This document shows positions 26,245 to 64,000 of a stretch of 64,000 bases of DNA, one piece after another. The stretch's first letter is position 1, and every line of letters begins with the position of its first letter. Made by a program: the position numbers and the translations under genes. Source of the stretch: a candidate division WWE3 bacterium RIFCSPHIGHO2_01_FULL_40_23 (GTDB lineage: Bacteria; Patescibacteriota; WWE3; UBA101185; 2-01-FULL-41-18); assembly GCA_001772615.1 (NCBI GenBank), contig MEUZ01000001.1:189483-253482 (forward strand). The letters run 5' to 3'. Under the pieces are notes generated by a model. It saw nothing but the letters and a program-made list of their open reading frames with translations. It did no database searches and was not told the origin of the DNA.

Positions 26245-26292
26245 GGGTGTAATTATACGTCTTTTTAATAGGGTTGTCGTTTGTTATTAGTT

Positions 26293-26362
26293 TGTCATCC
26301 CGGCGAAAGCAGGGATCCTGAATCAAGTTCAGGATGACAAGGGCCCAAGCCCGGGATGACAA
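26293..26362. repeat. Structured palindromic element, copy D
   Basis: TGTCATCCCGGCGAAAGCAGGGATCCTGAATCAAGTTCAGGATGACAAGGGCCCAAGCCCGGGATGACAA. Confidence 0.7.
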
Positions 26363-26455
26363 AAGGTCCGCGACACAACGGACTAAGTCTAAACAAAAAG
26401 GAGGTGGACTGCAGTCAATACACCTCCTTAAAAATCCTTTGTCAACTTATGGGGT

Positions 26456-27742: not shown

Positions 27743-27816
27743 TTTGTCCTCTCCTTTTTACGACAGATTAATTTTTGCTTTCGCAAACCGCCGGATTTAA
27801 CAACTCACAACCACCT

Positions 27817-27887
27817 TTGTCATCCCGGGTTTGACCCGGGATCCCGTTGGAGTTGCTGTAGAGATCCCTGCATCCGCAGGGATGACA
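27817..27887. repeat. Structured palindromic element, copy E
   Basis: TGTCA + ATCCCGGGTTTGACCCGGGAT + TCCCTGCATCCGCAGGGA + TGACA. Confidence 0.75.
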
Positions 27888-27964
27888 GGGGGTCGTGTTA
27901 AACTCGCCGGTTTACACACGAGAAAGTAAAACAAAACTTCCTCGTGTGAATGGTGGGCAGACCT

Positions 27965-28846: not shown

Positions 28847-28967
28847 TCTCTCATCTCCTTATCTTTTCCTTATTGGTTTTGTAAAGTGTGAGTATTATAG
28901 GTTTTATGAATGCGGGTGTCAAAAACGAACCATGTTTTAAGATTCACTAACACTTTTGCGGGTACTG

Positions 28968-29064
28968 TCTGTCATCCCGGGCTTGACCCGGGATCTTATC
29001 GCGGGATTGTCATAGAGATCCCGGATCATGTGCCCGCCTTCGGCAGGCAGGTCCGGGATGACAA
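28968..29064. repeat. Structured palindromic element, copy F (double unit)
   Basis: CTGTCATCCCGGGCTTGACCCGGGATC… plus GATCCCGGATC… plus GTCCGGGATGACAA, between divergent genes. Confidence 0.75.
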
Positions 29065-29136
29065 TTGGAATAAACCTGAATAAAGATATAAAATATCCGA
29101 TAGCAAAACTATTACAAAGAAAAGAGGAAAGAGACC

Positions 29137-29922
29137 ATGAAAAAGCTTATTGTAGCTATGGTAGCGTTTCCGTTGGTGGTACTGCTCTACGCGTGTGTAT
29201 CCCGCAACCCCCAGCTCACGGAAACACCAGCCGCAGTCGGAACCGCTACACGGGTGGCACTATCAACCGCGTCAGCGGAGGTTTCTCTGACTCCGAGTCC
29301 CGAAGTAAGTGAAGCCGTCTTTATCAAAGGCGGGGTGGCTACACTTGGCCGTACGGAAAAAGAGGTTGAGGAAGACTATCAAGACTGCCTTGCTATGGCG
29401 GGCAGGACAAATCAAGCAGCTTCAATCTGTGAACCAAAGGATAGTGTCTTTGGCGACCGGCCGCTTCGTACCATGTGGAAAGTGGAAGCTTTTCGCCTTG
29501 ATATTTATGAAGCCCACGATTCCAATGGCTACCCGCTCATCGTGCACTACGACGAAGCGGTTAAGGCCTGCCAGGAAAAAGGCGGAAGACTCCCCACCGA
29601 GGAACAGTGGGAATTTGCCGCGCGCGGCGAGGAGGGAAGAATGTGGCCATGGGGAAACAGCCCGCCCACAGCCGACAAGGCAAACATTGACACGGTTGGC
29701 GGCTACTCCGACAATCGCGTTCAAAAAGTGGGACAATACGAAGCGGGCAAAACGCCCGAAGGGGTCCACGACATGGTCGGAAACGTATGGGAATGGGTCG
29801 AAGGCGGCATGCGAAAAGGCGGGAGCGCGGGAAGCTATGTGGTTTTCACAAAGCCTTCCCATATGACCAGCGATAGCCAGGCTGGTTTCCGTTGCGCCTA
29901 TGATGCGCCCCCTAACTCATGA
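29137..29922 (+). CDS. Lipoprotein with formylglycine-generating-enzyme (FGE/SUMF1)-type domain
   Basis: Lipobox LLYAC; HDMVGNVWEWV…GGS…GFRCA signature. Confidence 0.75.
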   Translation: MKKLIVAMVAFPLVVLLYACVSRNPQLTETPAAVGTATRVALSTASAEVSLTPSPEVSEAVFIKGGVATLGRTEKEVEEDYQDCLAMAGRTNQAASICEPKDSVFGDRPLRTMWKVEAFRLDIYEAHDSNGYPLIVHYDEAVKACQEKGGRLPTEEQWEFAARGEEGRMWPWGNSPPTADKANIDTVGGYSDNRVQKVGQYEAGKTPEGVHDMVGNVWEWVEGGMRKGGSAGSYVVFTKPSHMTSDSQAGFRCAYDAPPNS

Positions 29923-29927
29923 GATTA

Positions 29928-29954
29928 GATTCCTGCTTCCGCGGGAATGACAAG
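29928..29954. repeat. Partial palindromic element, copy G (ATTCCTGCTTCCGCGGGAATGACAAG)
   Basis: Half-element immediately 3' of the FGE gene. Confidence 0.5.
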
Positions 29955-29955
29955 T

Positions 29956-29996
29956 TTTTTTTCAGAGCGGAAAGAACACAAACTTTCCGCTTTTTT
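29956..29996 (+). terminator. Rho-independent terminator
   Basis: AGCGGAAAG…CTTTCCGCT followed by TTTTTT. Confidence 0.65.
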
Positions 29997-30091
29997 ATTC
30001 AAAAACAAAACCGAATTTCAAATAAAAAACCCTCCGAACACGAGGTCACAACTTCTGTGACATCTGATTCAGAGGGTGTCAAACTTAAAGT

Positions 30092-31669
30092 CTAGGGGTC
30101 ACACTCCCCGATTGCCTTACCCCATTCACGGGTTGTCACGTCAAAGGTAGTCCTGTAATCCCCTTCAGTAGTAACGACCTCTAGCACTGTGCCGCTAAAA
30201 CCGGTAAGTTTCAACGTGCACTCCATTGTGCTTATGGGGTAACCCTTCGGAACCTCCGCTCCCTTTTCCAAAATCAAGGTAGCCTGGCCGTTAGCTGTCG
30301 CCCCTGCGAACACAACAACGGATTGGCCGTCGGTAGTATCCACACCAGTCCACCGTGTCGTTAGCCGGTAGCCTGGGTACGGTCCTCCAGTCACTTCCAT
30401 AATCCTGCCGGCCACCGAAGGAGTCAGTCCGGGGATAGTCGGCTGAACCGGTTGAGTGAGGTACTCAATTGCCTTCTCCGGCGGTAACGGCTGTGGGGCG
30501 TCGCACCCACTCAAAAGTGCAAACGTCACCAAAGAGGTCAAAACCAAATTCCTCATCATCTCACACTCCTCTACTTGCGAGCTCACACTTGGATAAGTGT
30601 AGGTTCGCGTGATATCGGTTGACCAACGAATTGTCAACTGTTCTAAGGGAGGTTTAACAATCTCATCCCTTAGCTGACGCCACCCTTCTTCCGGGCTATT
30701 GTCGGCCCCTTCGCAACCCGGCGGTTGGGGTCCTCCCGGAGGGCACCTCTGCTTTTGGGTCATAACCCCAACGAAGCGGATGGTTTCCCCATACTGCTCA
30801 CGCACAAAGTTGGCAACATCGGCCCACTGCCTAGCGTTGTATCCATTTATGTTGTAAATCTCCGGAACCGGACGGGCGTATGGGATATGCGGATTCCCTT
30901 TACCGATACGGCAGCACTTATATGCCACCTCGTCATAGTTCCATCCGTTCTCGCATACGTCACTGTCTACATTGCACACGGCGTTGCCAAAATCAAGCAA
31001 ACAACCTTTGTCGGGGTCCCCGGGAACACAGGTTGTTGCTTTAATGTACTCCTCTTCCCAACGCTCGGTGGTGTAAGGGTCGTTCCACGTGAGCTCCATA
31101 TCACTCGCACCGACGATGGTAACCTGACTGCTGTAGTTGGCCGCTCCCTGGACTATGGAATTAACCATTAAAGCCCAGGCCTTGCCATGTCCCACAGCAA
31201 GAGCCAAGTCCATTGAGGAGTTATTCACCCCAACGCCGATCGTCAATTGGGACAGCTTATCCCTTGACGAATAGATCCAGAAATTTCTGGCCATTTGTCT
31301 TACAGCTTCTCTAATGTCAGATTCCTTAAAGAAACCGTCAACAAAAATAGGCCAGGCTCCCCAGATACTGCCCGATTTTCCCGGATAACCAAGATCCAAA
31401 ACCACAAGCCAGTCCTGGGCCCTGGGCGTGTTGTACGCCGCAATGCCCAAAGCCCGGCCGACATCCGGAAGAAACCTTAAGTCATCAACATAATAGGACT
31501 TGGTCCATCCCGGATACGGGGGCAGCGGGTAATTTTTCAGGATCAGCGGCAGGTAAACCTTCCGGTGGTTTAGGGCGTCACTCTTCTCCTCCTCTGCGCT
31601 TATACCACTTACTCCGCTTGACGTTAGAAAGACCGCTAACGCAAGCAAGGCACAGAGGACGCGCTTCAT
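30092..31669 (-). CDS. Secreted protein ORF (525 aa) containing an internal second lipoprotein signal peptide (possible fusion of two genes)
   Basis: N-terminal signal peptide MKRVLCALLALAVFLTSSGVSG. At residue 371, MMRNLVLTSLVTFALLSGC (lipobox) is preceded by GAGGAG; an internal start would be at 30559. There is no stop codon between the two halves. Confidence 0.55.
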   Translation of the reverse strand: MKRVLCALLALAVFLTSSGVSGISAEEEKSDALNHRKVYLPLILKNYPLPPYPGWTKSYYVDDLRFLPDVGRALGIAAYNTPRAQDWLVVLDLGYPGKSGSIWGAWPIFVDGFFKESDIREAVRQMARNFWIYSSRDKLSQLTIGVGVNNSSMDLALAVGHGKAWALMVNSIVQGAANYSSQVTIVGASDMELTWNDPYTTERWEEEYIKATTCVPGDPDKGCLLDFGNAVCNVDSDVCENGWNYDEVAYKCCRIGKGNPHIPYARPVPEIYNINGYNARQWADVANFVREQYGETIRFVGVMTQKQRCPPGGPQPPGCEGADNSPEEGWRQLRDEIVKPPLEQLTIRWSTDITRTYTYPSVSSQVEECEMMRNLVLTSLVTFALLSGCDAPQPLPPEKAIEYLTQPVQPTIPGLTPSVAGRIMEVTGGPYPGYRLTTRWTGVDTTDGQSVVVFAGATANGQATLILEKGAEVPKGYPISTMECTLKLTGFSGTVLEVVTTEGDYRTTFDVTTREWGKAIGECDP

Positions 31670-31886
31670 TGTAGTCTCCTTAAAGGCTAAAAGTACCCGT
31701 TAAATCTCTTGCTAAAAAACCGATTGTGTATTAGGCGTCAGCCTTCCTTTCTAATTGTGAATAATTTGAAAGTTGTCTTAATTATACTTCTACACAAACC
31801 GGCCCATAAAATCAACAGTTTTTAACCTAGACCGTTATTAGCCCCCATGGTATGATTTAAAACAGTAATTGATTTAAGGAGAATTT

Positions 31887-32099
31887 ATGATGACAGAAGG
31901 TGGCCAAAACAACGAAGGTGGGGAAGGCTCGGCTTTGGCTTCTATAAACGAAGTTTTGGAGGCACTAGATCCTGAAAATAGAGAAAGTTTAAGAGGTGCA
32001 ATAGCAGAAGCATTAGCAGATGGGAAAACACCCGATGAGATAGTTAAGATACTGGAGGGGGGAGTGGAAGAAAATCCTCCCACAGCACAATCCACTTGA
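31887..32099 (+). CDS. Small acidic protein (70 aa)
   Basis: Strong RBS TAAGGAGAATTTATGATG; Glu/Gly/Ala-rich. Confidence 0.45.
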   Translation: MMTEGGQNNEGGEGSALASINEVLEALDPENRESLRGAIAEALADGKTPDEIVKILEGGVEENPPTAQST

Positions 32100-40839: not shown

Positions 40840-40914
40840 TTGTCATCCCGGGGCTTGACCCGGGATCTCTACAGAAGATCCGATGGGATCCCCGCTTTCG
40901 CGGGGATGACATCC
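40840..40914. repeat. Structured palindromic element, copy H
   Basis: TTGTCATCCCGGGGCTTGACCCGGGATC…GGATCCCCGCTTTCGCGGGGATGACATCC. Confidence 0.75.
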
Positions 40915-54122: not shown

Positions 54123-55250
54123 ATGAAATTTACCTGTCTTCAGGAAAATCTTGTAAAAGGTCTTTCAACCGTGGGTAAGGCCGTTTCTTTAAAAGGATCT
54201 CTTCCCGTACTCTCAAATGTTCTTATTTCTTCGGATAACGGCAGGCTTAAATTATCAGCGACTAATCTTGAGACTGCGATAACGACTTGGATAGGTGCTT
54301 CCATTGACAGAGAGGGTGCTGTTACCATTCCGGCCAGGATTTTATCAGAGTTTGTTTCAAACCTCCCACCTTCCAGCATTGTGGGTGAGGTTGAGGGAAA
54401 TATCCTTAAACTTTCGTGCGAAAAAGCTTTATCCAAGTTTAACGGGCTTGACGCTTCAGAGTTTCCCGACCTTCCTGTGTTTACGGAGGATTCCCATTTG
54501 AATATTGACTCAAAGCTATTTGGAGAAGCCGTTTTGGAGGCCGCTTTTGCCGCTGCGGTGGATGAAAGCAGGCCAGTTTTAACGGGCGTTTTGGTAAATG
54601 CTTCAAAGGACGGTCTGTATATGGTTTCAGTGGATGGGTTCAGGCTTGCTGAAAAGATTGTTTCCCTTAACGGGAAAAACCTTAAAAAACCTTTCCTCGC
54701 CGTTATCCCTGCAAAAACTCTTCTTGAGGTCGCAAGGCTTGTCGGATCGCTGAAAGATCCTCTTGAAATTTCTCTAAGTGAAGAGGGCAATCTTGTAATT
54801 TTTAAAGTCGGAGATGTCCTTATAACATCCCGTACGATAGATGGAGACTTTCCGGAGTATAAAAAACTTATACCTGAAAAGGACAAGGGGACTACTGTTG
54901 TAAAACTTCCTGCAAAAGATTTTGTTAATGCTTTAAGGCTTTCTAATGTTTTTGCCAAAGAAGCTTCAAGCGTTGTCAGGATTAAAGTTGATTCTTCCGA
55001 GAACGCTGTTTTTGTTTTATCTTCAAACTCGGAAGTCGGAGAAAATAACAGCAAAGTTTCCGCCGAGGTTTCAGGCAAAGATATGGAAGTTGCCTTTAAC
55101 TCAAAGTTTATTATGGATGTTTTTAATAATGTGAAGTCTGACGAGTTTGTTTTCTCCCTCCCTGAAAAGATAGGCCCCGGTGTCCCGGGCGTTTTTAAGC
55201 CCTCCGAAAGGGATGATCATACTTACCTCGTAATGCCCATGCAATTCTAA
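54123..55250 (+). CDS. dnaN: DNA polymerase III beta sliding clamp
   Basis: MKFTCLQENLVKGL… with a three-domain clamp layout; 375 aa. Confidence 0.9.
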   Translation: MKFTCLQENLVKGLSTVGKAVSLKGSLPVLSNVLISSDNGRLKLSATNLETAITTWIGASIDREGAVTIPARILSEFVSNLPPSSIVGEVEGNILKLSCEKALSKFNGLDASEFPDLPVFTEDSHLNIDSKLFGEAVLEAAFAAAVDESRPVLTGVLVNASKDGLYMVSVDGFRLAEKIVSLNGKNLKKPFLAVIPAKTLLEVARLVGSLKDPLEISLSEEGNLVIFKVGDVLITSRTIDGDFPEYKKLIPEKDKGTTVVKLPAKDFVNALRLSNVFAKEASSVVRIKVDSSENAVFVLSSNSEVGENNSKVSAEVSGKDMEVAFNSKFIMDVFNNVKSDEFVFSLPEKIGPGVPGVFKPSERDDHTYLVMPMQF

Positions 55251-55476
55251 CCCCTTTACTAACCATAATTACGAGCACGATAGAAATCAAAAACATATCT
55301 TCTCGAAGGCACGGGATCTCGCGGTACGTTACAGAACTGTGTATTCATTACTCGCGCGGCCCCTTCCTCTCGCCATTGCTATAAAAGTATTAATTCATAA
55401 ATACAAAGCAATGGCTGCGAGAATCCTTCTTTGAAGATATATTTTTGATTTCTGTTTGTTATGTTCGTAGTTCAGG

Positions 55477-57540
55477 TTAGTAAAGGGAGGAGACCTCATC
55501 CTCATCGGGGTTTTTAGGGGCTGGGGATTGTGCGGCGGGGCTTTGTGGGTAGCCTGCTTCTACCTGCGGCGCTTTTTGAGGTTGAGCTGTCGGTTGCGGC
55601 TGCCCTTCTTTTATTATGGGAATATTATTTCCGCCCAGCGGAGCTGGCTCTTGAGGTGCTTCCTGTGGTGAAGCAGGTGGGGGAGCGGGTTTATTGTAAT
55701 TTGGAACGGGCCTGTAAATCACTTTTGTCTGCGGCTGTTCTTTTAACGTTCCTTTTTCTCTTAACTTAATTAGTTCAGCAGGATTTGTTGTAACAAGCTT
55801 ATATTCCTCTTCCGACGCCTCAATTTTAATCGCAACGTGGTTGCTTCCAGCAAAAAACAGCCCTTCTCCGATGCCCGCCGATAATAAAAACCTCTTTTCT
55901 CCTTCGGACAAATAAAATGTTTCGGCAACTTTATCAATTGCCGCGGGGTGCTGTTTTAAAAGCACTTGAATTGAGGAGCTCGTGATTATTGCATGCCCGT
56001 ACTCGCTTGATAAGAAATCCTCAACATCTTGCGTAATTGTAGTTAAGCCTAGGAAATATTTCCTTGCTCTTTTTGCTATGCCATATATAAATGTCGCAGA
56101 ATCCTTGTTTTGCATCAGATACCACGCCTCATCAATAACAAGAATTCTTTTTCTTAAGTCTTTTTTAATTCTTGTCCATATGAAATCAAGTATTATGTAT
56201 ATTGCGATAGGCCTTAAAACATCCTCAAGAGACCTCGTGGAAAAAACGGTGAACTTGCTTCTTATGTCTATATTTGACCTCTGGTCAAAAATCCCTGCTA
56301 GAGAACCCTTAATATATCTTTCAAGCCTTGAGGCAAGAGCTTTTGCTTCGGGCTCTTCAAATCCAAGAAGAACTTTATATAAATCCTCCATTATCGGAGG
56401 CTCTTTTGTCCTTTGCGTTTCGGGATCCGTTGTAATTCCCTTGATTCTGTAAGCTTCTATCAGAGATTTGTCTAAAACGGCTTCTTCAACGTTAGTCATG
56501 TTCCCAAAGATTATTTTAAAAAGTGTATGCAGGGAAAGTATTTTTTGCCCCAGCTCATTTTCGCCTTCTATGGCAACCCCCGAAAGATCAAATGGGTTTA
56601 TTCTTGAAGGGGAGGATGGGGAAAATTCAATATAGTTTCCCCCTACCGCTTCGCAAAGTCTTTTGTATTCCATTTCGGGGTCAATGACTAAAATCTCGGA
56701 TCCAAAAACCATAGACCTTAAAGCTTCAAGTTTAACGAAAAATGATTTTCCTGCCCCTGATTTTGCAAAGACCACCGTGTTGGCGTTTTCCAGGGAAAAC
56801 CTATCAAATATTACAAGAGAGCCGTTATGCTTGTTTATGCCATACATTATTCCTTCGTTTGCCGTAAGATCAGATGATGTAAACGGAAAGGTTGTAGCAA
56901 GGCTAGTTGTGTCCATGTTTCTCGTAATGAGAAGCTTATCAAGGCATAACGGAATAGTTGTTTGAAAGGCCTGTTCCATCTGAAGAGACGCCTGTTTTGA
57001 AATAAGAAGAAGGGAGCCAAGAGTTGATTCAACTTTTTTGGTAACCACCTCAAGCTCTTCAAGAGTGTCTGCGGGAACAGTCACATAAAATGAAAACTGG
57101 AAAAATTTTTCCACTCCTTTTACAAGCTGTTCCTGAAGGGATTGCGCGTCTTCAAGCGCGGCGCTTACTGTGGGATCAACTATTTTGCCTCTCTCTCGAT
57201 CCGTTCTGACTGTCGCCTCCATTTCAGCAATTTTTCTTCTTAAGTCGTCAAGAATTCCCCTTGACTGCACGGGATAATAAAACATTGATATATCAAGAGT
57301 GTGTTCAAAATTAATAAGAGGTGAAAGCCAGTTGGCCCCGACAAACCTAGGGTATCCCGCGACAAACAGCGTTCTGTAATAAGTGTTTCCAACCCTTATA
57401 TGCGTGAAATCAACTTCAATTGCAGATGGAGCTATAACGTCTTTAACGTCAACCATCCCTTCCGCAAGTTTCTTTGCGGAGCCCTCGGCGCTCTTTTCTT
57501 TTTCCAGGTCCTCCTTCTTTTTGTTTATAGGCAGTTTCAT
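55477..57540 (-). CDS. virB4: Type IV secretion VirB4-family ATPase (Gram-positive / TcpF-PrgJ-like)
   Basis: N-terminal …IAPSAIEVDF…VGNTYYRTLFVAGYP; Walker A FAKSGAGKSFF; Walker B ILVIDEAWYL (DEAW). P/Q-rich C-terminal tail. Confidence 0.8.
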   Translation of the reverse strand: MKLPINKKKEDLEKEKSAEGSAKKLAEGMVDVKDVIAPSAIEVDFTHIRVGNTYYRTLFVAGYPRFVGANWLSPLINFEHTLDISMFYYPVQSRGILDDLRRKIAEMEATVRTDRERGKIVDPTVSAALEDAQSLQEQLVKGVEKFFQFSFYVTVPADTLEELEVVTKKVESTLGSLLLISKQASLQMEQAFQTTIPLCLDKLLITRNMDTTSLATTFPFTSSDLTANEGIMYGINKHNGSLVIFDRFSLENANTVVFAKSGAGKSFFVKLEALRSMVFGSEILVIDPEMEYKRLCEAVGGNYIEFSPSSPSRINPFDLSGVAIEGENELGQKILSLHTLFKIIFGNMTNVEEAVLDKSLIEAYRIKGITTDPETQRTKEPPIMEDLYKVLLGFEEPEAKALASRLERYIKGSLAGIFDQRSNIDIRSKFTVFSTRSLEDVLRPIAIYIILDFIWTRIKKDLRKRILVIDEAWYLMQNKDSATFIYGIAKRARKYFLGLTTITQDVEDFLSSEYGHAIITSSSIQVLLKQHPAAIDKVAETFYLSEGEKRFLLSAGIGEGLFFAGSNHVAIKIEASEEEYKLVTTNPAELIKLREKGTLKEQPQTKVIYRPVPNYNKPAPPPASPQEAPQEPAPLGGNNIPIIKEGQPQPTAQPQKAPQVEAGYPQSPAAQSPAPKNPDEDEVSSLY

Positions 57541-57542
57541 CT

Positions 57543-58250
57543 TTACTCCTCTAATATGGCAGGTTCAACTATCGCCACTTTAAAATCATCCACTCTTGCT
57601 TTTATCCTTTGCTCATGGACTGATGAGGGATTATAAATGTCAAAAAACAACTCAACAAGCTCCTGGGTGTTTAACTGTCTTGTTTTTATGCCGATTCTTG
57701 CGAATTCTTTAACAATGTTGTCTCTTTTAGGATACAACTCGGCCGTCGCATTTTTGATTACATGCGGGACATTTACCGTCATTCTTTTGTTTCTTGAGCC
57801 TGTCAAAAGTGATATGAAATCAAAAGGCCCGCCTCCCTGCTGCCTTGGGACATCAACTGTTCCCCCTGAAGGAATGGCCACGTAAAAACTTTTATCCAAA
57901 ACTTCATTTCTTTGTATTAAATCCTGCACAAACTTTCTGTAAGACTGCGCCTGGATACGAAGAAGAGGGTCTTTAATTTTACTTTCAACAGCCTTTACTT
58001 TTTCTATGTAGTTTGTAATATCAAGTCTTTTGCTTCTTAAAATGACCTGAATGGGGAACGAAAGAGAGTTTAAAAGGGCGGAAAACGCGGCTATTATGGC
58101 GTCCTGCTCTATTTCGGAGAGGAGGTCAAAGTTAACGGCAGTCGTTTTAAGAACCAGTGTCACTCCTCCATTTTTTAAGACCACAAGATCATCAGTTATT
58201 GTTTCTATATCAAGGTGATCTTGTGTTGAGTAATTTACTTTCTGACTCAT
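57543..58250 (-). CDS. T4SS-associated hypothetical protein, translationally coupled to virB4
   Basis: Stop TAA, two nt, then the virB4 ATG, with GAGGAG as RBS inside its 3' end. A different frame from virB4, so not a split gene. Confidence 0.55.
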   Translation of the reverse strand: MSQKVNYSTQDHLDIETITDDLVVLKNGGVTLVLKTTAVNFDLLSEIEQDAIIAAFSALLNSLSFPIQVILRSKRLDITNYIEKVKAVESKIKDPLLRIQAQSYRKFVQDLIQRNEVLDKSFYVAIPSGGTVDVPRQQGGGPFDFISLLTGSRNKRMTVNVPHVIKNATAELYPKRDNIVKEFARIGIKTRQLNTQELVELFFDIYNPSSVHEQRIKARVDDFKVAIVEPAILEE

Positions 58251-59914
58251 GTTTTTAGTTTACCAGTAAATTCAACGGGTGGTAATACCAGACCCTTTAC
58301 TTCTATACTCACTCTGTCAAAGGACATAGGGTTTTTTTCGCCCTCTTTTGAAACTTCTAAAACATAAGTTCCGTTTGAAACAGGTGTCGTTATGGAAAAT
58401 TGACCAAGTTTATTTGTCTTTAGAGCCCGCACCGTGTCGCCTTTTGAATCTTTAACTATTACCACGGCTCCTTCCAAAAGCGTTTGGGTCTGGTCCTTTA
58501 CTACCCCGTTTATGATGTTTGGGACTCCGGTGATGGGTGAGATGTTTGAGAAGGTTGCCTTCTGCAATGGGGCTTGCGCCTGTGCTCCTTGTGTAAATTC
58601 AGAAGGTATTACAGGTACATGTACCTTCTCCACCACTTTTTGCACGATAACCCTTGGCTGTTCGCTTCCCATTTCTTTAATCTTTTGCTCCATCTCAAAA
58701 ATTCTTTGCTGAAGAAGTGCAACCTCTCTGTCGGCCTGCTCCTTTTCCGTTTGGAGGTTTTTTATCTGATTTGTGATCTGATCTTTTTCTTCTTTACTGC
58801 TTCCAGCCTGACCGGCTTTTTTCTTAAGCTCCTCTATCTCTTTTTCCAGCCTTTGATTGTCAGTTTTAAGTTGGGCTACCGCTTGCGAAGCGCCTTTTTG
58901 GATTGTGCCTTTTGTAGCCTCCTCCACTTTTGCGGCCGGTGCCTCCTCCTTTTTTTCCTTCGGCTGCTGCCCTTTCTTTATTTTTTCAACAAGTTCGGTG
59001 AGCTGCCTTGTTTTTAATGAAAGGTCACTTTCCGCTTTTTCTTCAGTCGGTTTTACTACCCGTTCTCCCCTTACGGGAAGCACTATTTCACCTTCCGTTC
59101 TTGAAAGATGTGTAAATCTCCTTCCCGCAAGTCTGTCCGGTGTTATGGGGGACCCCGTGTAAAATTTAGGCGTGTATTGGTGAGGTATTATTACCTGTGC
59201 AGGGCTTATTTTTGGTTCCTCCGCTTGTGGGAGTGTTATTTCGGCTTCAAGAAAAGGGGTGGCTTCGGGTTTCTGCGGGATTTCCTCTACTGGTTTAGGG
59301 GGTTTAGGAGCCCCCACTTCTTTGATTTCTGGTTCCAATCCTTTTACTTCCGGTGTGTAGGGCCTAAGAGGCTTGAAGACCTGCTTCGGCTCTTCCGTTG
59401 TGGTTACTACACCGCCGTAAGCTTCTTTTACTTTGTTTATAAAATAATCCTCGGCAATATCAAGAGGGTCTTTAGGGGCTCCGGCACCTTCACGTTCAAG
59501 ATACTGCTCAAGCTTTCTCCTGCTTGCAGTCGGGGCTACAGCCATAAGCTCCGATTTAAGCATGGCAAGATTTTGATATAAAAAGTAGCTTGGAGGGACT
59601 ATTTCTTTTCTCCATATCCTTTGGGTTGGTGTGTAAATTGCGTTTATAAAGTTAGCAACCCATTGATCAAGTCCTCTTTCCTCAACCGGTACAAAAGCGA
59701 TCGCAACGCCTGCCCCCGCTATTAAAAGCGCAACGGGAAGCCTTAAAAAGCTTGGAAGTCCTGATCTTAGCGCCCCGAATGCAAAAATCGCGGCTATTAC
59801 TAAGTAAAAGAACTGCCTCATGGTAAGGCTTCCAATCACTTTAAATTCAACCTGCATTATGTTCTGGGGAACCGCGTGCTGCTTGTTTGTTTGAACGACT
59901 TCGTTTATGGGCAT
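58247..59914 (-). CDS. T4SS-associated bitopic membrane protein (VirB3/VirB8-like N-terminus, coiled coil, C-terminal carboxypeptidase-regulatory-like beta-sandwich)
   Basis: Two N-terminal TM helices; Pro-rich spacer; Lys/Glu coiled coil; C-terminal …VVIVKDSKGDTVRALKTNKLGQFSITT…GTYVLEV…. Confidence 0.55.
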   Translation of the reverse strand: MPINEVVQTNKQHAVPQNIMQVEFKVIGSLTMRQFFYLVIAAIFAFGALRSGLPSFLRLPVALLIAGAGVAIAFVPVEERGLDQWVANFINAIYTPTQRIWRKEIVPPSYFLYQNLAMLKSELMAVAPTASRRKLEQYLEREGAGAPKDPLDIAEDYFINKVKEAYGGVVTTTEEPKQVFKPLRPYTPEVKGLEPEIKEVGAPKPPKPVEEIPQKPEATPFLEAEITLPQAEEPKISPAQVIIPHQYTPKFYTGSPITPDRLAGRRFTHLSRTEGEIVLPVRGERVVKPTEEKAESDLSLKTRQLTELVEKIKKGQQPKEKKEEAPAAKVEEATKGTIQKGASQAVAQLKTDNQRLEKEIEELKKKAGQAGSSKEEKDQITNQIKNLQTEKEQADREVALLQQRIFEMEQKIKEMGSEQPRVIVQKVVEKVHVPVIPSEFTQGAQAQAPLQKATFSNISPITGVPNIINGVVKDQTQTLLEGAVVIVKDSKGDTVRALKTNKLGQFSITTPVSNGTYVLEVSKEGEKNPMSFDRVSIEVKGLVLPPVEFTGKLKT

Positions 59915-59976
59915 GTTTATGATGAATTATAACTTTTTAAAACCCTAAAAGACAGAGTAACGTTTAATTATATCAT

Positions 59977-61251
59977 TTATTTTTTGGGTTTGAGGTAGGC
60001 ATTTATCATGCCGGGGGCGCGAAGGGCTACAATCCATGTTCCAAACATAAGCATGCCGCCGACAAGAGGCGATAGCGCTGTGCTCCAAAAGCCGGGTGTT
60101 GGGGTGCTGCTGTCCCAAAGAACCGATAAGAATAGGTAAAAGCCAAGCATTATTAAAAGAACTATTGCAGGAAGAGCTAGCACTGCCGAAAGCATGTCCA
60201 CAAACCAGTCTTTAATTCTATGCTCTTGTCCGGGAATAGCCGCGATAGCAAAAATCAAAGGAGAAAATATCGTCAAAAATATTATTTTAAGATAGTTAAA
60301 GATATACACAGCGCCAAGCGCGAATAGAAATATCACAAGGAAAACAAGAGCTACCAAAACGACAAGAGTAAGGCCGATTGTAAGTATAAAACCAAGCCCA
60401 ATCGGACCAAGAAGCACTTTTGCCGCGCAATCTGACGCCGCAGAGATACTTGATATCTCGCTACAGCTGTATGGAGGGGTTGTTAAAGAAGGATTGACTC
60501 CCTTAAGCACCGATGCCCCGCCTCCCGTTGTCTCAAGTATAAAAGATCCGGCTATCTTTACGAGAGGGCTGTTCCATCCAAGCCCTATGGACTGATCAAA
60601 GATAGCTCCTATCCCATAGCTTAAGGTGATAAGAATGGCACTTATTATTATTCTCGGAATTGCGGCCTGCGCCGTTACTGCCGTTTGCGGATCTATTTTT
60701 GATCTCATTGAAATCATGACTGAAATAACGAGCACAAAAGCGGCAAGGAGTCCGTACGAAGCATTTCTAAAGCCTTTCCATATTTCATAAACGCTTTTAA
60801 AAGGGTTGGAAATGGTTGCGGCTTGCGCTTCCTGGAAAACAGGCGAATCCTCTTTTATTCCGTTAAAGTAAAGAGCAAGGGTTGCGGGAGGTGGTGTGTC
60901 CACTGCCCCCTGCAGAGTTGAGGTGGATAGGGCTAAGAGGCTTCCGTTTCTAAGGCCCGTACCCTGTCCGGTAAGGTTTAAGTCAGGCCAATCCGAAGTA
61001 TCTGAAAAACAATCAGTCGGGTAGCCCGTCATGCCTATATAAAAAGAGTCTATTAAAGCCTGAAACGCGCCGACCCCAAGAGACCTTTGGGTGCTTTCAT
61101 CCCCAAGGATCACACCGATAACAGTCTGCCAGAAAGTTGAGCCCGGAGGTCTTGTCCCGTCTCCGCAAGAGGCAAGCCCGGGACGCGCAAAAATAATCGC
61201 AATAAGAAATAAGGTTACAAACAGCGGTACTGCCTTTTTTAAAGTACTCAT
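59977..61251 (-). CDS. VirB6/TrbL-like polytopic membrane protein
   Basis: Signal peptide, about 120-aa extracellular domain, then about 6 TM helices; position inside the T4SS cluster. Confidence 0.5.
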   Translation of the reverse strand: MSTLKKAVPLFVTLFLIAIIFARPGLASCGDGTRPPGSTFWQTVIGVILGDESTQRSLGVGAFQALIDSFYIGMTGYPTDCFSDTSDWPDLNLTGQGTGLRNGSLLALSTSTLQGAVDTPPPATLALYFNGIKEDSPVFQEAQAATISNPFKSVYEIWKGFRNASYGLLAAFVLVISVMISMRSKIDPQTAVTAQAAIPRIIISAILITLSYGIGAIFDQSIGLGWNSPLVKIAGSFILETTGGGASVLKGVNPSLTTPPYSCSEISSISAASDCAAKVLLGPIGLGFILTIGLTLVVLVALVFLVIFLFALGAVYIFNYLKIIFLTIFSPLIFAIAAIPGQEHRIKDWFVDMLSAVLALPAIVLLIMLGFYLFLSVLWDSSTPTPGFWSTALSPLVGGMLMFGTWIVALRAPGMINAYLKPKK

Positions 61252-61313
61252 ATTCTTGAGTAGATATTAAGCCCATATATTAAAAAGTTCAAGTATTTGC
61301 TACTATTTAAACC

Positions 61314-63917
61314 ATGGCGCCGCCTATTCTTTACCCGGGTTATTACCCCGGAACCCGTCCGCTTAAAGGAAAAAGAGGAAGACCAAGGAAAATCTTTCCC
61401 GACCCATTTTTAACGGATTTAACATCCGCAATTAATGTGCAGGGCTCCGTTTTGGGTTTGCCCAATCAGATCGGCGAGCTTTTTGAAAAAGATTTTACAA
61501 ACGGTCTTAAGATAAGATACGGGATTTCAGAAGTGGAGTCGGGAGTTGCGGCCGAAGAACTTCAGGCTATAGAAGAAGAATATCAGGAGCTTCCCGGGGC
61601 GATGGGGATCGGGATAAGTTTTGATCCCGAAGTGTGGAAGAAAAAAGGTTTTGAGCAAAATCTTAGGGAAACGGGCGAAGAGTGGATAAACGCGGTTTTA
61701 GGTTTTAAGGATTTAAGCGTTAGAACCGAGCTTGCCGGAGTATGGGATCCTCTTTTAAACCCTACGAGAGAGGCAACCGAAGCGCAAAAGAAGATGAGCC
61801 TTCACGCGATTTCATATGCGCAAAAGTATGTAAACGAGCCGGGGGGACCACAGGCAAAAGAATTCTCAAGCGTTAACGACCTTTCAAATTCAATCAGAAA
61901 TTTCGTTGTTTTTGGAAATACAGCCTCTGAAAGAGGCAGGAAGTTTGACACGGTTCAGCTTAATTTTGCTTTTGCTTTATCTCAAGTCGTAAATAAAGAT
62001 ACAAAAGTTGCAAATTTCGGAGCTAACATTCTTGCCAAGGAGACGGCCTTATCAAGCATTGGGTCAAACATTGCGTCACTTGAAAGAAGGCTTGCCGCAA
62101 CAACTGATCCTGATACACAAAGGGCTTTGCAGGATCAGCTAGACCTTCTTCATGCTGATGAAAGTAGAATTAATGCCGAGGTTTCGGAGCTTAGGGAAAA
62201 AGACTCCACTATCAAAACTCTTAACGCAAGGCTTGATAAAGCTTTGACCACTCCTAGAAAAGAAAGAGCGCTAAAGCTTACACAAAAAGCAAGAGCGAGG
62301 CTTGAGGCGCAGCTTAAGACTGAAAGTGACCCTGCAACAAGAGCCAGCATTGAAGCAAGGATCACGGATTTAAAAAAAGATGAGAATGACTTAAAAGGGT
62401 TTCTTGACTCGCTTACGGATAAGGATAGGGCGGAGCAGCGGAAAGAGCTTAAAGGGTTATGGGGCGATGCTGTTAATTCAAAAGACGGTGAGTTAAAAGA
62501 TGCTCTTAATGAGGTTGATGACAAGAAGCTTGCGGGATGGGCAAAGCTTGTTGATTTTAGAAATAATGTTTTTACCTATAACGAATATATTGACTCGGCC
62601 GCAGAAGGAAGGCTGTTTCAAACTTTCGTCTGGAACAGGATTAGAAGGGCACTTCCTTTTTTAGGGCAGGCTTACTCGGCCAAAATGTTTATTGACAACC
62701 CGTTAAGATTTGCCATAAGCGTTTTTGCCAAGGCGACGAGCGCGAAGGGCTATGATCTTCCCGTTGTGGGAAAATTCAGAATCCCCTTTGTCAACAGGTT
62801 AATGACCTCCATCGGAAAGTTTCTTGACGGAACTCTTGGGAAAATCGCCAAACTTATTGCAAGAAGTCCGATTCTTAGGGGGATTGTAACCACGCTTACC
62901 GGGGGGCTTGTCAGAAGTATCGTCAATAAAGCGGTTATGAGCATCATCGCTGGGGCGGGTGTTACGGGTGTAGGTACGATTCCGGCCGCCGCGGCTGCGG
63001 CCTTAACTTACGTCGGGGAAAAGGTTTGGAGTATTTTTGTTTCCTTTATAAAGCTTGATATTTCAGGGGCGATAGATAAGATCGCAAAGGAGTTTTCTAA
63101 TTTATTAAAACTTGGAATGCTTGCGATAGGCGTGCCTATTTTTTTGATAGGCGCAATTTTTTATATGGTTATTAATATTATGACGGCCCCGATGTCAGGG
63201 ACCTCAACGGTTGGCAGAGGAGGGGCGACTGGGATTACAAGCGGTGGTGGTACTGGAACCGTTGGGGGAGGCGGCAGCTCCTGCTCTGTCGTTCCGAAGG
63301 GGTTTGATAACGACCTTTTTTCAAAAATGGAGCCGTTTGGAAGCCCCAAACTTATTGATGTGCCTGACAGCATTTTCTTTGGGCAGGGAAGCTGTTATGG
63401 GGAGTGCAGGACATCTGTAAATTATCTGCACGGCGGTTTAGATCTTAATACTAACCACGATTATAGCGAACCCGCGCTGACATCACCTTATCAGGGAGAT
63501 GCCGTTGTGTTTTTTGCCAACTCAAGCTGTACGGGCGGGGGTAAAGGCTGTGGAAACGGTTTTGGGAACCACGTTATTCTAAAAGTTTCGGGGGAGGAGG
63601 ATTGCACCGATTACGGTGAATGCGGAACCAACATGTACATATATTTTGCCCATTTAAGTTCTTTGTCCGTAAGTGTTGGAGACACTGTTTCCTACGGTGA
63701 GGGGGTTGGTAAGCTTGGCAACACGGGAAATTCCACGGGCCCGCATTTGCATTTTGAAATAAGGTCAGGTTCTACAAATTCAGCCTACACCGTAAACCCA
63801 TGTTTTGTTTTCTCCTGTGACCCAATCAGCGACTTTAGCAGTGCAGCGAGATCAAGCTGCAGGCCTCCCGAGATTCACGGTCCTCTTTTCAACGATTATG
63901 ATGCCTCTTACCATTAA
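61314..63917 (+). CDS. Large T4SS-associated protein with C-terminal M23 (LytM-type) peptidase domain
   Basis: AT-hook-like GKRGRPRK at the N-terminus, long coiled-coil region, two TM helices, Gly-rich linker. M23 motifs HGGLDL…HDY…GNHVIL and …GNTGNSTGPHLHFEI. Confidence 0.75.
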   Translation: MAPPILYPGYYPGTRPLKGKRGRPRKIFPDPFLTDLTSAINVQGSVLGLPNQIGELFEKDFTNGLKIRYGISEVESGVAAEELQAIEEEYQELPGAMGIGISFDPEVWKKKGFEQNLRETGEEWINAVLGFKDLSVRTELAGVWDPLLNPTREATEAQKKMSLHAISYAQKYVNEPGGPQAKEFSSVNDLSNSIRNFVVFGNTASERGRKFDTVQLNFAFALSQVVNKDTKVANFGANILAKETALSSIGSNIASLERRLAATTDPDTQRALQDQLDLLHADESRINAEVSELREKDSTIKTLNARLDKALTTPRKERALKLTQKARARLEAQLKTESDPATRASIEARITDLKKDENDLKGFLDSLTDKDRAEQRKELKGLWGDAVNSKDGELKDALNEVDDKKLAGWAKLVDFRNNVFTYNEYIDSAAEGRLFQTFVWNRIRRALPFLGQAYSAKMFIDNPLRFAISVFAKATSAKGYDLPVVGKFRIPFVNRLMTSIGKFLDGTLGKIAKLIARSPILRGIVTTLTGGLVRSIVNKAVMSIIAGAGVTGVGTIPAAAAAALTYVGEKVWSIFVSFIKLDISGAIDKIAKEFSNLLKLGMLAIGVPIFLIGAIFYMVINIMTAPMSGTSTVGRGGATGITSGGGTGTVGGGGSSCSVVPKGFDNDLFSKMEPFGSPKLIDVPDSIFFGQGSCYGECRTSVNYLHGGLDLNTNHDYSEPALTSPYQGDAVVFFANSSCTGGGKGCGNGFGNHVILKVSGEEDCTDYGECGTNMYIYFAHLSSLSVSVGDTVSYGEGVGKLGNTGNSTGPHLHFEIRSGSTNSAYTVNPCFVFSCDPISDFSSAARSSCRPPEIHGPLFNDYDASYH

Positions 63918-64000
63918 TTGCCAAATTCTTTTGTTATAATATCTTTGTGTTTGAGAGAATTTATAATTTTTTTCAGAGCAGGAGAGCACTTGCTTTATTA

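What the first reader, a model, noticed from the sequence alone, without database searches (positions are those of the whole stretch)
55477..63917. Type IV secretion-like cluster directly beside dnaN and the origin region
Five consecutive genes form a compact T4SS-like module. The VirB4 ATPase has the Gram-positive-type N-terminus (…IAP..IEVDF…YRTLFVAGYP), Walker A GAGKS and the Walker B motif DEAW. A 235-aa protein is coupled to it by GAGGAG-TAA-AG-ATG. The 555-aa bitopic protein has VirB3/8-like TMs, a coiled coil and a carboxypeptidase-regulatory-like beta-sandwich. There is a VirB6-like polytopic protein. The 867-aa protein has an AT-hook-like N-terminus, coiled coils, TM helices and a C-terminal M23 peptidase, the likely cell-wall-remodelling component. 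No relaxase, coupling protein (VirD4) or VirB11 is present in the window. That resembles the minimal T4SS sets reported in episymbiotic CPR bacteria rather than a conjugative element. Base composition matches the core genome.
Basis: partly seen in the sequence, partly recalled or inferred. Interest (0 to 1): 0.7.

Follow-up and report, generated by a model that had tools for sequence, protein, structure and literature searches.

The report
Known CPR-type type IV secretion locus
This is a real type IV secretion gene cluster, derived from conjugation machinery, that most CPR/Patescibacteria carry on the chromosome next to the replication origin; its make-up, lack of DNA-transfer genes and position beside dnaA/dnaN were already published in 2023-2025, so it is not a new find.

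Summary
The window comes from candidate division WWE3 bacterium RIFCSPHIGHO2_01_FULL_40_23. Five adjacent genes encode:
- a VirB4 ATPase (CD1110 family, 390 bits against a cut-off of 325);
- a 235-aa TrsD-like protein, equivalent to the detached N-terminal domain of VirB4;
- a 555-aa PrgI/VirB3-like protein with a C-terminal CarboxypepD_reg domain;
- an 867-aa membrane protein with an intact M23 peptidase domain.

The cluster continues past the window end with three T4SS_pilin genes.

No relaxase, coupling protein or VirB11 was found in the window or in the 5 kb beyond it.

In relatives, PrgI-TrsD-VirB4 is colinear in 73 of 80 loci. dnaN lies within 5.3 kb in 55 of 66 loci with enough downstream sequence, and is always convergent with virB4.

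Small additions from this work: the PrgI/beta-sandwich fusion is conserved in 42 of 44 relatives, the AT-hook is not conserved, and the dnaN-virB4 spacer is an unusually stable palindrome (z -8.3).

The function (a pilus or conduit to the host, direction of transport unknown) is inferred.

The parts
55251..55476 (.). Spacer between the convergent dnaN and virB4 genes. It is a long imperfect palindrome and probably a bidirectional terminator; a MITE-like insert is not excluded.
   Evidence: The arms are 55252-55302 and 55433-55487. RNA MFE is -76.2 kcal/mol against -42.4 +/- 4.05 for shuffles, z -8.3. It is single-copy. The equivalent spacers in 11 relatives have z between -2.4 and +0.3. The function is inferred.
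55477..57540 (-). VirB4-type T4SS ATPase, 687 aa. It lacks the usual first ~170-210 residues and carries a P/Q-rich C-terminal tail (residues 596-687).
   Evidence: NCBIfam conju_CD1110 scores 390 bits (cut-off 325), aligned to profile positions 168-752. Pfam P-loop_TraG E 2.4e-31. BLASTP to pCF10 PrgJ: residues 21-565 align to PrgJ 213-772, E 4e-42. Walker A at 259, Walker B at 466. An identical protein is found in a WWE3 MAG.
57543..58250 (-). TrsD-like protein, 235 aa. It is homologous to the N-terminal domain of full-length VirB4 and its gene is tightly spaced with virB4 (consistent with translational coupling).
   Evidence: NCBIfam TrsD/TraD E 1.1e-8. VirB4_plasma profile positions 99-232, E 1.8e-10. 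Pfam TraC_F_IV E 0.0012. Precomputed PF26593 TraC-like, weak. The stop codon, 2 nt and then the ATG of virB4 are read. A homologue was found in 77 of 80 related loci, and 73 of 80 have the full colinear PrgI-TrsD-VirB4 triad.
58247..59914 (-). PrgI/VirB3-like membrane protein, 555 aa. It has a two-helix hairpin (residues ~25-82), a long linker with coiled-coil-like composition and a C-terminal CarboxypepD_reg beta-sandwich (468-526).
   Evidence: Pfam PrgI 41.7 bits (cut-off 27) and CarboxypepD_reg 38.6 bits (cut-off 32.3). Hydrophobic segments. The same two-domain architecture is found in 42 of 44 relatives.
59977..61251 (-). VirB6-like polytopic membrane protein, 424 aa, first gene of the operon.
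61252..61313 (.). 62-bp AT-rich divergent intergenic region between the virB6-like and M23 genes. It presumably holds both promoters.
   Evidence: Sequence read. The simple sigma-70 scan found no hit there. The promoter role is inferred only.
61314..63917 (+). 867-aa membrane protein with a C-terminal M23 metallopeptidase. It is the likely cell-wall-opening component, a functional analogue of VirB1/PrgK.
   Evidence: Pfam Peptidase_M23 53.2 bits (cut-off 28.7). H706GGLD and H811LH motifs are present, and there is a strong TM segment at 593-630. Family members lie next to T4SS genes in 22 related loci. The N-terminal RGRP (residue 21) is not conserved, but a P-x-FYPGYYPG motif recurs in the WWE3-type relatives.
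63947..64000 (+). Start of a 318-aa gene for a protein with one N-terminal TM segment. The gene runs off the window end. It occupies the position that PrgL (VirB8-like) holds after PrgK in pCF10.
   Evidence: The gene is L001 12634-13590, which equals window 63947-64903. TM segment at residues 8-37. No Pfam or PDB sequence match. The VirB8-like role was not tested.

Best explanation
The locus is a member of the chromosomal Patescibacteria clade of type IV secretion systems, which descends from the monoderm (MPF_FATA) conjugation machinery.

Shown here:
- A four-gene operon on the minus strand encodes a VirB6-like channel/platform protein, a PrgI/VirB3-like protein, a TrsD-like protein (a stand-alone VirB4 N-domain) and the VirB4 ATPase.
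- A divergently transcribed gene encodes a large membrane protein ending in an intact M23 peptidoglycan peptidase.
- Just past the window lie three VirB2-like pilin genes and cysteine-rich secreted proteins.
- No relaxase, coupling protein or VirB11 lies nearby.
- The locus is fixed beside dnaN/oriC in relatives, which indicates a vertically inherited core function.

Inferred from what is known of T4SS subunits:
- VirB4 hexamers dock on the membrane through PrgI and TrsD.
- The VirB6-like protein forms the assembly platform.
- The M23 peptidase opens the wall.
- VirB4 extracts pilins from the membrane to build a pilus or tube that contacts the host cell of this presumed episymbiont.

The system is not a conjugation apparatus. 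The direction of transport is unresolved. I favour uptake of host macromolecules (about 0.35) over effector export (about 0.25) or adhesion alone (about 0.15). The reason is that the gene set (VirB4, VirB3, VirB6 and pilins, without T4CP, VirB11 or relaxase) parallels the import systems ComB and Ced.
For: - Identity of the five proteins.
- Organism, and high conservation of VirB4 (65-100% identity across Patescibacteria).
- Pilin family just beyond the window, with 26 of 29 members matching PF18895 (best E 5e-11).
- No T4CP, relaxase or VirB11.
- Synteny. PrgI-TrsD-VirB4 is colinear in 73 of 80 loci. dnaN is convergent in 55 of 55 loci and within 100 bp in 30.
- Gene order is colinear with pCF10 prgH-prgI-prgJ and with S. 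epibionticum SEML1_0013...0006.
- Literature. The S. epibionticum T4SS is essential for epibiotic growth, has a pilin array and has no recognisable relaxase or T4CP (PMC10633639). A survey of 3,035 Patescibacteria genomes gave a monophyletic VirB4 clade nested in MPF_FATA, with TrsD, PrgI and VirB6, almost no relaxases, and proximity to dnaA/dnaN (PMC12102498). A pilus acting as a conduit has been speculated (PMC12857230). A cultivated relative takes up host RNA and shows tubular structures at the host interface (bioRxiv 10.64898/2026.06.21.733656).
Against: - Nothing in this sequence shows expression, assembly, a substrate or a direction of transport.
- VirB6 membership rests on a predicted fold. 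Sequence profiles are sub-threshold, and hhalign against PrgH was negative.
- No VirB8-like subunit was identified.
- Only the window and 5 kb beyond it were examined, so a T4CP or relaxase could be encoded elsewhere in the genome. The 2025 survey finds distant T4CP homologues in most Patescibacteria genomes.
- WWE3 bacteria have not been cultivated, so the episymbiotic lifestyle is itself an inference.
Confidence: 0.8

Rival explanations
1. The machine exports protein effectors or toxins into the host bacterium. This would resemble the bacteria-killing Xanthomonas T4SS or the Streptococcus suis 89K effector translocator, and would be used to manipulate or permeabilise the host.
For: Wang 2023 suggested that the S. 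epibionticum T4SS may export proteins because it lacks DNA-transfer components. Cysteine-rich secreted proteins are encoded next to the pilins.
Against: Known effector-translocating T4SSs almost always need a VirD4-type coupling protein, and none lies in the window or the 5 kb beyond it. No candidate effector with a recognisable domain is in the locus. The neighbouring cysteine-rich proteins have N-terminal hydrophobic segments that look like signal peptides, which would suit Sec-dependent export and not export through a T4SS.
Confidence: 0.25
2. The system only builds an adhesive VirB2-type pilus that holds the epibiont on its host, and nothing passes through it.
For: In Gram-negative systems, pilus biogenesis does not require VirD4 (my own knowledge of the field). 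Pilin arrays with divergent paralogues fit host-surface recognition.
Against: Patescibacteria already use type IV pili for adhesion (PMC12102498; PMC10633639). The T4SS is essential in S. epibionticum independently of those pili. [quoted passage not shown]
Confidence: 0.15
3. The locus is part of an integrated conjugative element, or a decaying remnant of one, that happens to lie near the origin.
For: The closest non-CPR homologues of VirB4, PrgI and TrsD are proteins of conjugative plasmids and ICEs. Gene order is colinear with pCF10.
Against: No relaxase, T4CP, integrase or other mobile-element gene is in the window. GC content matches the surrounding genome. The same locus sits beside dnaN in 55 of 66 relatives with enough sequence. 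VirB4 is 65-80% identical across WWE3 and other Patescibacteria, which points to strong purifying selection. All reading frames are intact.
Confidence: 0.03
4. The ATPase belongs to a non-T4SS P-loop family (FtsK, HerA or similar), and the cluster serves another membrane process.
For: There is a weak Pfam DUF87/HerA hit of 29.8 bits. Some databases name the protein 'DUF87 domain-containing'.
Against: The conju_CD1110 score of 390 bits is above its curated cut-off. TraC-F and VirB4_CagE profiles also hit strongly. The alignment to PrgJ runs over 545 residues. The neighbours are T4SS-specific: PrgI, TrsD, a VirB6 fold and T4SS_pilin.
Confidence: 0.01

Closest known systems
T4SS of Candidatus Southlakia epibionticum ML1 (SEML1_0006-0019; Wang et al. 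2023, PMC10633639)
   Same: It is chromosomal and lies within ~20 kb of the start of the genome record. It has the same core order: VirB6-like, then PrgI, a 293-aa protein at the TrsD position, and VirB4. Cell-wall hydrolases are adjacent and a PF18895 pilin array follows. No recognisable relaxase or coupling protein is in the cluster.
   Different: It belongs to another class (Saccharimonadia, not WWE3). Its PrgI is 300 aa with no CarboxypepD_reg hit listed for it in the paper's annotation table. Its VirB6-like protein is 1088 aa against 424 aa here. Its hydrolase is a lysozyme/glucosaminidase, not an M23 peptidase. An NTF2-like (VirB8-like) protein is present there. It has six pilins against three here. 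Essentiality was shown there and nothing was tested here.
Patescibacteria VirB4 clade of MPF_FATA T4SSs (Quinonero-Coronel et al. 2025, PMC12102498)
   Same: That survey describes a VirB4 nested in MPF_FATA, TrsD as the most frequent partner, PrgI/VirB3, VirB6, M23/LysM-type hydrolases, VirB2-like pilin arrays, near-absence of relaxases, and proximity to dnaA, dnaN, rnpA and rpmH. All of these are seen here.
   Different: The paper does not name WWE3 in its main text and does not mention the PrgI/CarboxypepD_reg fusion. I could not confirm that this genome is in its dataset.
pCF10 Prg/Pcf conjugation system of Enterococcus faecalis (MPF_FATA prototype)
   Same: The order prgH(VirB6-like)-prgI-prgJ(VirB4) is the same, and a large wall hydrolase (PrgK) is followed by a protein with one TM segment (PrgL). 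VirB4 aligns to PrgJ with E 4e-42.
   Different: pCF10 has the coupling protein PcfC, a relaxase, the adhesin PrgB and no pilins. Its VirB4 is full length (796 aa) and it has no TrsD. Its PrgI is 117 aa. The 424-aa protein shows no detectable sequence similarity to PrgH. The M23 protein shows only marginal similarity to PrgK (E 0.007).
pGO1/pSK41 Trs system of Staphylococcus aureus (TrsD plus the VirB4 protein TrsE)
   Same: It is the only classical MPF_FATA subclass with a separate TrsD protein next to VirB4. The 235-aa protein hits the TrsD/TraD family with E 1.1e-8.
   Different: It is a plasmid-borne conjugation system with a relaxase and a coupling protein. The survey reports that the pGO1 subclass has no VirB6 homologue.
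T4SS-related DNA import systems: Helicobacter pylori ComB and archaeal Ced
   Same: They are VirB4-type ATPase systems that work without a coupling protein or relaxase and that import DNA. They are the functional analogy for the uptake hypothesis. There is a weak CedB hit, E 1.1e-11 and 44 bits.
   Different: The CedB score is far below its cut-off of 700 and far below the CD1110 score. No CedA or ComB-specific subunits were found. In S. epibionticum, competence depends on ComEC and type IV pili and is separable from T4SS essentiality. The composition of ComB and Ced is stated from my own knowledge.
TrwI/VirB6 of plasmid R388 and DotA of the Legionella Dot/Icm system (solved structures)
   Different: Sequence identity is 8-16%. 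Both are diderm systems. The query is a predicted model whose N-terminal 150 residues are of low to moderate confidence (block means 45-84).

Membership tests
Type IV secretion system (any class) | A VirB4-family ATPase with intact Walker A and Walker B motifs, the one universal T4SS marker | tested here: met
   conju_CD1110 scores 390 bits against a cut-off of 325. TraC-F, VirB4_CagE and P-loop_TraG also hit. AKSGAGKS at 259 and ILVIDEAW at 466. HerA/DUF87 scores only 29.8 bits.
Patescibacteria clade of MPF_FATA T4SS | VirB4 falls inside the monophyletic Patescibacteria clade | tested here: inconclusive
   No tree was built. All 120 best database hits listed are 65-100% identical, and those that carry an organism name are WWE3, Nomurabacteria or unclassified Patescibacteria. 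The best non-CPR model is the monoderm CD1110 family. This is consistent with membership but is not a phylogenetic test.
Patescibacteria clade of MPF_FATA T4SS | A VirB3-type subunit (PrgI) encoded next to virB4 | tested here: met
   Pfam PrgI 41.7 bits against a cut-off of 27, residues 15-100. All 44 relatives scanned match PrgI.
Patescibacteria clade of MPF_FATA T4SS | A TrsD-like protein (homologue of the VirB4 N-domain) next to virB4 | tested here: met
   TrsD/TraD E 1.1e-8 and the VirB4_plasma N-terminal region E 1.8e-10. Scores are below the full-length curated cut-offs, as expected for a fragment-sized homologue. A homologue is present in 77 of 80 loci. hhalign against a single PrgJ sequence was not significant.
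Patescibacteria clade of MPF_FATA T4SS | A VirB6-type polytopic membrane subunit | tested here: met
Patescibacteria clade of MPF_FATA T4SS | A cell-wall hydrolase associated with the cluster (VirB1 role) | tested here: met
   Peptidase_M23 53.2 bits against a cut-off of 28.7, with HxxxD and HxH motifs present. Enzymatic activity and its target were not tested.
Patescibacteria clade of MPF_FATA T4SS | VirB2-like pilin genes (PF18895), often in arrays | tested here: met
   They lie outside the window, at L001 15521-17425. The three genes are individually sub-threshold (24, 17.7 and 16.2 bits against 26.6), but 26 of 29 members of their family match PF18895 (best E 5e-11). No pilin gene lies inside the window.
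Patescibacteria clade of MPF_FATA T4SS | A VirB8-like (NTF2-fold) subunit | not tested
   The 318-aa protein with one TM segment after the M23 gene is a positional candidate. It has no Pfam or PDB sequence match.
Patescibacteria clade of MPF_FATA T4SS | A chromosomal location near dnaA/dnaN, without a relaxase nearby | tested here: met
   dnaN ends 226 bp from virB4. The GC-skew minimum is at ~51.5 kb. dnaN is convergent in 55 of 55 relatives. No relaxase is in the window or the 5 kb beyond it.
Patescibacteria clade of MPF_FATA T4SS | Required for host-dependent (epibiotic) growth | not testable with these tools
   This has been shown only for S. epibionticum ML1 by Tn-seq (PMC10633639).
Conjugative element (plasmid or ICE) | A relaxase (MOB) and an oriT | tested here: not met
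   No relaxase domain appears in any window ORF of at least 300 aa or in the genes up to 5 kb beyond the window. The rest of the genome was not examined.
Conjugative element (plasmid or ICE) | A VirD4/TcpA-type coupling protein | tested here: not met
   The only Walker A motif found among the five T4SS proteins and the six unassigned large ORFs is the one in VirB4. No T4CP family hit appeared in the Pfam scans. The rest of the genome was not examined.
FtsK/HerA-type non-T4SS ATPase systems | The ATPase scores best against the FtsK or HerA families | tested here: not met
   DUF87/HerA scores 29.8 bits against 390 bits for the VirB4 CD1110 family. No FtsK family appeared in the hit lists.

The most novel reading that the evidence does not exclude
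The machine might work in reverse as an essential feeding tube. In this reading a VirB4-powered VirB2-type pilus pierces the host envelope and imports host nucleic acids or other macromolecules. This would supply an organism that cannot make nucleotides.

Two lineage-wide features could be adaptations to that role:
- the VirB3 subunit enlarged by a coiled-coil linker and a beta-sandwich domain (42 of 44 relatives);
- the detached VirB4 N-domain.

The conserved head-on placement against dnaN at the origin might tie expression of the system to replication.

None of this is excluded by my evidence, and none of it is shown. The import idea itself has already been floated in the literature (PMC12857230; bioRxiv 10.64898/2026.06.21.733656).
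Probability: 0.3. Interest if true: 0.75.

Novelty: already known. Interest (0 to 1): 0.22.

Why it matters
The Patescibacteria T4SS is biologically important. It is the first T4SS reported to be essential for the bacterium that carries it, and it is a leading candidate for how ultra-small, auxotrophic CPR bacteria exploit their hosts.

This locus shows that the WWE3 lineage carries the full published set: a split VirB4 (TrsD plus VirB4), PrgI, VirB6, a wall peptidase and pilins, next to oriC.

As a discovery it adds little. The composition, the lack of a relaxase and the position near the origin were all published in 2023-2025.

Three modest observations might be useful to people working on the system:
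- The VirB3/PrgI subunit carries a conserved C-terminal CarboxypepD_reg beta-sandwich in WWE3 and Microgenomates-group relatives.
- virB4 is always convergent with dnaN, which puts the operon head-on to replication in the layouts examined.
- The widespread 424-aa family (7390 cluster representatives) can be assigned to VirB6 by fold where sequence profiles fail.

Tried and rejected
- **AT-hook.** The KRGRPRK at residue 21 of the 867-aa protein is real, but none of the 22 family members has RGRP. I rejected it as a functional DNA-binding feature.
- **VirB6 by sequence.** Pfam gave nothing for the 424-aa protein. NCBIfam gave only E ~0.002 hits. One of 86 relatives hit TrbL. hhalign of the family profile against pCF10 PrgH was negative. 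The family profile found nothing in PDB sequences.
- **Word-indexed homologue search.** It returned only 6-7 relatives of the 424-aa protein, even with a 22-sequence profile. The exhaustive representative search was needed.
- **First AF2 model.** With a 7-sequence alignment it was too poor to use (pLDDT 56). The model was redone with 86 sequences.
- **afdb50 fold library.** It was unavailable.
- **TrsD profile.** Against PrgJ (hhalign) and against PDB sequences it was not significant. The assignment rests on the NCBIfam hits.
- **M23 protein against PrgK.** Only marginal local similarity was found, so I call the two analogous, not orthologous.
- **318-aa protein.** No Pfam or PDB sequence match.
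- **Looking further than ~5 kb past the window.** All three retrieved contigs end just after the pilin array.
- **Promoter and terminator consensus scan.** It found no more sites than in shuffled sequence.
- **Spacer palindrome.** No copies elsewhere in the window or loci, and no phage match.
- **Supplement search of the 2025 paper.** No mention of this genome or of WWE3, though only two supplementary files are held as text.
Full report
**What is in the sequence.**
ORF listing confirms five genes at exactly the coordinates given. Four lie on the minus strand and are tightly spaced:
- 424 aa, 59977-61251;
- 555 aa, 58247-59914;
- 235 aa, 57543-58250;
- 687 aa, 55477-57540.

The gaps are 62 nt, then a 4-nt overlap, then 2 nt. 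The junction GAGGAGTAAAGATG is read directly.

The 867-aa gene (61314-63917) is transcribed divergently from a 62-bp AT-rich spacer.

dnaN (54123-55250) is convergent with the last gene of the operon. dnaA, rnpA, yidD, yidC and jag lie just upstream. The cumulative GC-skew minimum falls at about 51.5 kb. The origin context is therefore real. GC content over the locus (0.40-0.45) is like most of the window.

**Source organism.**
The 687-aa protein is identical to a protein annotated as 'hypothetical' in candidate division WWE3 bacterium RIFCSPHIGHO2_01_FULL_40_23. Its next 119 listed database relatives are 65-83% identical. Those that carry an organism name come from WWE3, Nomurabacteria or unclassified Patescibacteria. 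This is a CPR genome.

**Identity of the five proteins.**

*The 687-aa protein is a VirB4.*
- It scores 390 bits against the NCBIfam equivalog 'VirB4-like conjugal transfer ATPase, CD1110 family' (cut-off 325). It also hits the TraC-F, VirB4_CagE and P-loop_TraG models. HerA/DUF87 reaches only 29.8 bits, and no FtsK family appeared in the hit lists.
- Walker A (AKSGAGKS, residue 259) and Walker B (ILVIDEAW, residue 466) are intact.
- It aligns only to positions 168-752 of the CD1110 model and to residues 213-772 of pCF10 PrgJ. It therefore lacks the usual N-terminal domain.
- It ends in a 92-residue tail that is 35% Pro plus Gln.

*The 235-aa protein supplies the missing piece.* It matches the TrsD/TraD family (E 1.1e-8), the N-terminal region of the mycoplasma ICE VirB4 model (positions 99-232, E 1.8e-10) and, weakly, the F-type TraC N-domain.

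*The 555-aa protein is a PrgI/VirB3-family protein.* It scores 41.7 bits against a cut-off of 27 and has a two-helix hairpin. It is extended by a long linker with coiled-coil-like composition and a C-terminal CarboxypepD_reg domain (38.6 bits against 32.3).

*The 424-aa protein has a VirB6 fold.*
- Sequence profiles gave only weak hits, though all were to VirB6-equivalent proteins of monoderm elements: CD3337/EF1877, MMCAP2_0566 and Mbov_0396.
- An exhaustive search showed that it belongs to a large family, with 7390 cluster representatives.
- An AlphaFold model built on 86 of those sequences reached pLDDT 78.
- The five best Foldseek hits in the PDB are all TrwI/VirB6 chains of the R388 T4SS.

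*The 867-aa protein carries an M23 peptidase domain.* It scores 53.2 bits against a cut-off of 28.7. The H706xxxD and H811xH metal-binding motifs are present, and the domain follows a strong transmembrane segment at 593-630.

*The AT-hook is not conserved.* The RGRP at residue 21 occurs in none of 22 family members. What recurs in the WWE3-type relatives is a P-x-FYPGYYPG motif followed by a basic, glycine-rich stretch.

**The cluster is larger than the window.**
The same contig from other assemblies continues for about 5 kb. It carries, in order:
- a 318-aa protein with one N-terminal TM segment;
- a 632-aa secreted protein with 30 cysteines;
- three small proteins of 146, 135 and 351 aa, each with the two-helix hairpin typical of VirB2 pilins.

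Individually these three fall just under the Pfam T4SS_pilin threshold. However, 26 of 29 members of their family in related loci match PF18895, with a best E of 5e-11.

**What is absent.**
All window ORFs of at least 300 aa were scanned against Pfam, along with several shorter ones. The genes just beyond the window were scanned as well. None is a relaxase, a VirD4/TcpA coupling protein or a VirB11. The six unassigned large window ORFs have no Walker A motif. The rest of the genome could not be examined.

**Conservation in relatives.**
Eighty related loci were fetched from WWE3 and Microgenomates-group genomes.
- PrgI-TrsD-VirB4 is colinear in 73 of 80.
- dnaN lies within 5.3 kb in 55 of the 66 loci that have at least 2 kb downstream. 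It is convergent with virB4 in all 55 and within 100 bp in 30.
- The VirB6-like gene, the M23 gene and pilin arrays are adjacent in a subset that shares this window's layout. Other WWE3 genomes have a ~1040-aa single-TM protein upstream of PrgI instead.
- The PrgI plus CarboxypepD_reg architecture is present in 42 of 44 relatives scanned.

This pattern, together with the high conservation of VirB4, marks a vertically inherited core function and not a mobile element.

**Comparison with what is known.**
The gene order matches prgH-prgI-prgJ of pCF10, with a hydrolase followed by a protein with one TM segment. It also matches the essential T4SS of Candidatus Southlakia epibionticum: SEML1_0013 VirB6-like, 0010 PrgI, 0009, 0008 VirB4, 0006 lysozyme, and 0014 onward pilins.

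- Wang et al. 2023 showed that this cluster is essential for epibiotic growth. They noted the pilins and the lack of a relaxase or coupling protein.
- Quinonero-Coronel et al. 2025 surveyed 3,035 Patescibacteria genomes. VirB4 was found in 2,417 of them and formed a monophyletic clade nested in MPF_FATA. TrsD was the commonest partner. PrgI, VirB6, hydrolases with added M23 or LysM domains and VirB2 arrays were present. Relaxases were almost absent. The loci often lay near dnaA, dnaN, rnpA and rpmH.
- A 2025 FEMS review and a 2026 preprint discuss the pilus as a possible conduit for uptake from the host.

**Mechanism.**
Shown here: the parts list, their order and their conservation.

Inferred from established T4SS biology:
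- VirB4 docks on PrgI and TrsD at the membrane.
- The VirB6-like protein is the platform.
- The M23 peptidase opens the wall.
- The pilins polymerise into a tube that reaches the host.

Without a relaxase or coupling protein nearby, conjugation is very unlikely. I lean toward import of host macromolecules, because this subunit set resembles the ComB and Ced importers. Export of effectors or a purely adhesive pilus cannot be excluded. Nothing in the sequence decides the direction of transport.

**Verdict.**
The feature is real and correctly interpreted, and it is already known as a kind. Interest as a scan finding is low. The side observations are listed separately: the PrgI fusion, the head-on placement, the palindromic dnaN-virB4 spacer with z -8.3 and the REP-like repeats.

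Noticed in passing
window 55251-55487: The whole spacer between the convergent dnaN and virB4 genes is a ~236-nt imperfect palindrome. It folds at -76.2 kcal/mol against -42.4 for shuffles (z -8.3). It is single-copy. The equivalent spacers of 11 relatives show no such structure (z -2.4 to +0.3). It could be a bidirectional terminator or a MITE-like insertion.
   Followed up: partly
L001 12634-17425 (= window 63947 to ~68738, beyond the window end): The T4SS cluster continues with a 318-aa protein with one TM segment, a 632-aa secreted protein with 30 cysteines, and three T4SS_pilin genes. One of these (351 aa) has a 30-cysteine N-terminal domain fused to the pilin hairpin. The three retrieved contigs, from different sources, all end within about 340 bp after this array.
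   Followed up: partly
window 26293-26316 (-) and 40888-40911 (+); L001 16320-16343 and 17518-17541: A REP-like 24-nt palindromic element (ATCCCGGCTTTCGCCGGGATGACG, up to 3 mismatches) occurs twice in the window, where none is expected by chance. It also forms an inverted pair flanking the 351-aa pilin-like gene. It may explain the assembly breaks there and the odd 'IPAFAGMT' start of the 135-aa ORF.
   Followed up: partly
window 58247-59914 and 43 related loci (alignment A6): The VirB3/PrgI subunit carries a C-terminal CarboxypepD_reg beta-sandwich in 42 of 44 WWE3 and Microgenomates-group relatives. For the S. epibionticum PrgI (300 aa) the paper's annotation table lists no such domain. The papers I read do not mention the fusion. 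If the protein has the usual VirB3 topology, this normally extracellular fold would sit in the cytoplasm; the topology was not tested.
   Followed up: partly
window 54123-57540 and loci L004-L083: virB4 is convergent with dnaN in 55 of 55 relatives that have dnaN nearby. In this window the T4SS operon points toward the origin and is therefore head-on to replication (GC-skew minimum at ~51.5 kb), and the Microgenomates-type gene layout implies the same. That is unusual for a conserved, presumably essential operon.
   Followed up: partly
window 26001-32000: This segment has GC 0.50-0.52 against about 0.41 elsewhere. It encodes an FGE-sulfatase-domain protein (29137-29922), a protein with a zinc-ribbon tail and two large proteins with an N-terminal hydrophobic segment and no family match. 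It may be a horizontally acquired island. A REP-like element sits at its left edge.
   Followed up: no
loci L005, L010, L016, L024 (upstream of the PrgI gene): A second WWE3 layout has a ~1040-aa single-TM protein immediately upstream of PrgI in place of the VirB6-like gene. In those loci the VirB6-like, M23 and pilin genes are not within 10 kb.
   Followed up: no
window 55477-55764 (VirB4 residues 596-687): VirB4 ends in a low-complexity tail that is 35% Pro plus Gln. Homologues vary from about 615 to 956 aa. Query coverage of 84-100% in the BLASTP alignments suggests that the variation lies mostly in this tail, but I did not map it.
   Followed up: no
loci L050, L054, L065, L067, L079 and others: Several public MAGs titled Gammaproteobacteria, Bathyarchaeia or Clostridia carry this Patescibacteria-type PrgI-TrsD-VirB4 locus, most of them with dnaN nearby as well. 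This suggests mislabelled or contaminated bins.
   Followed up: no
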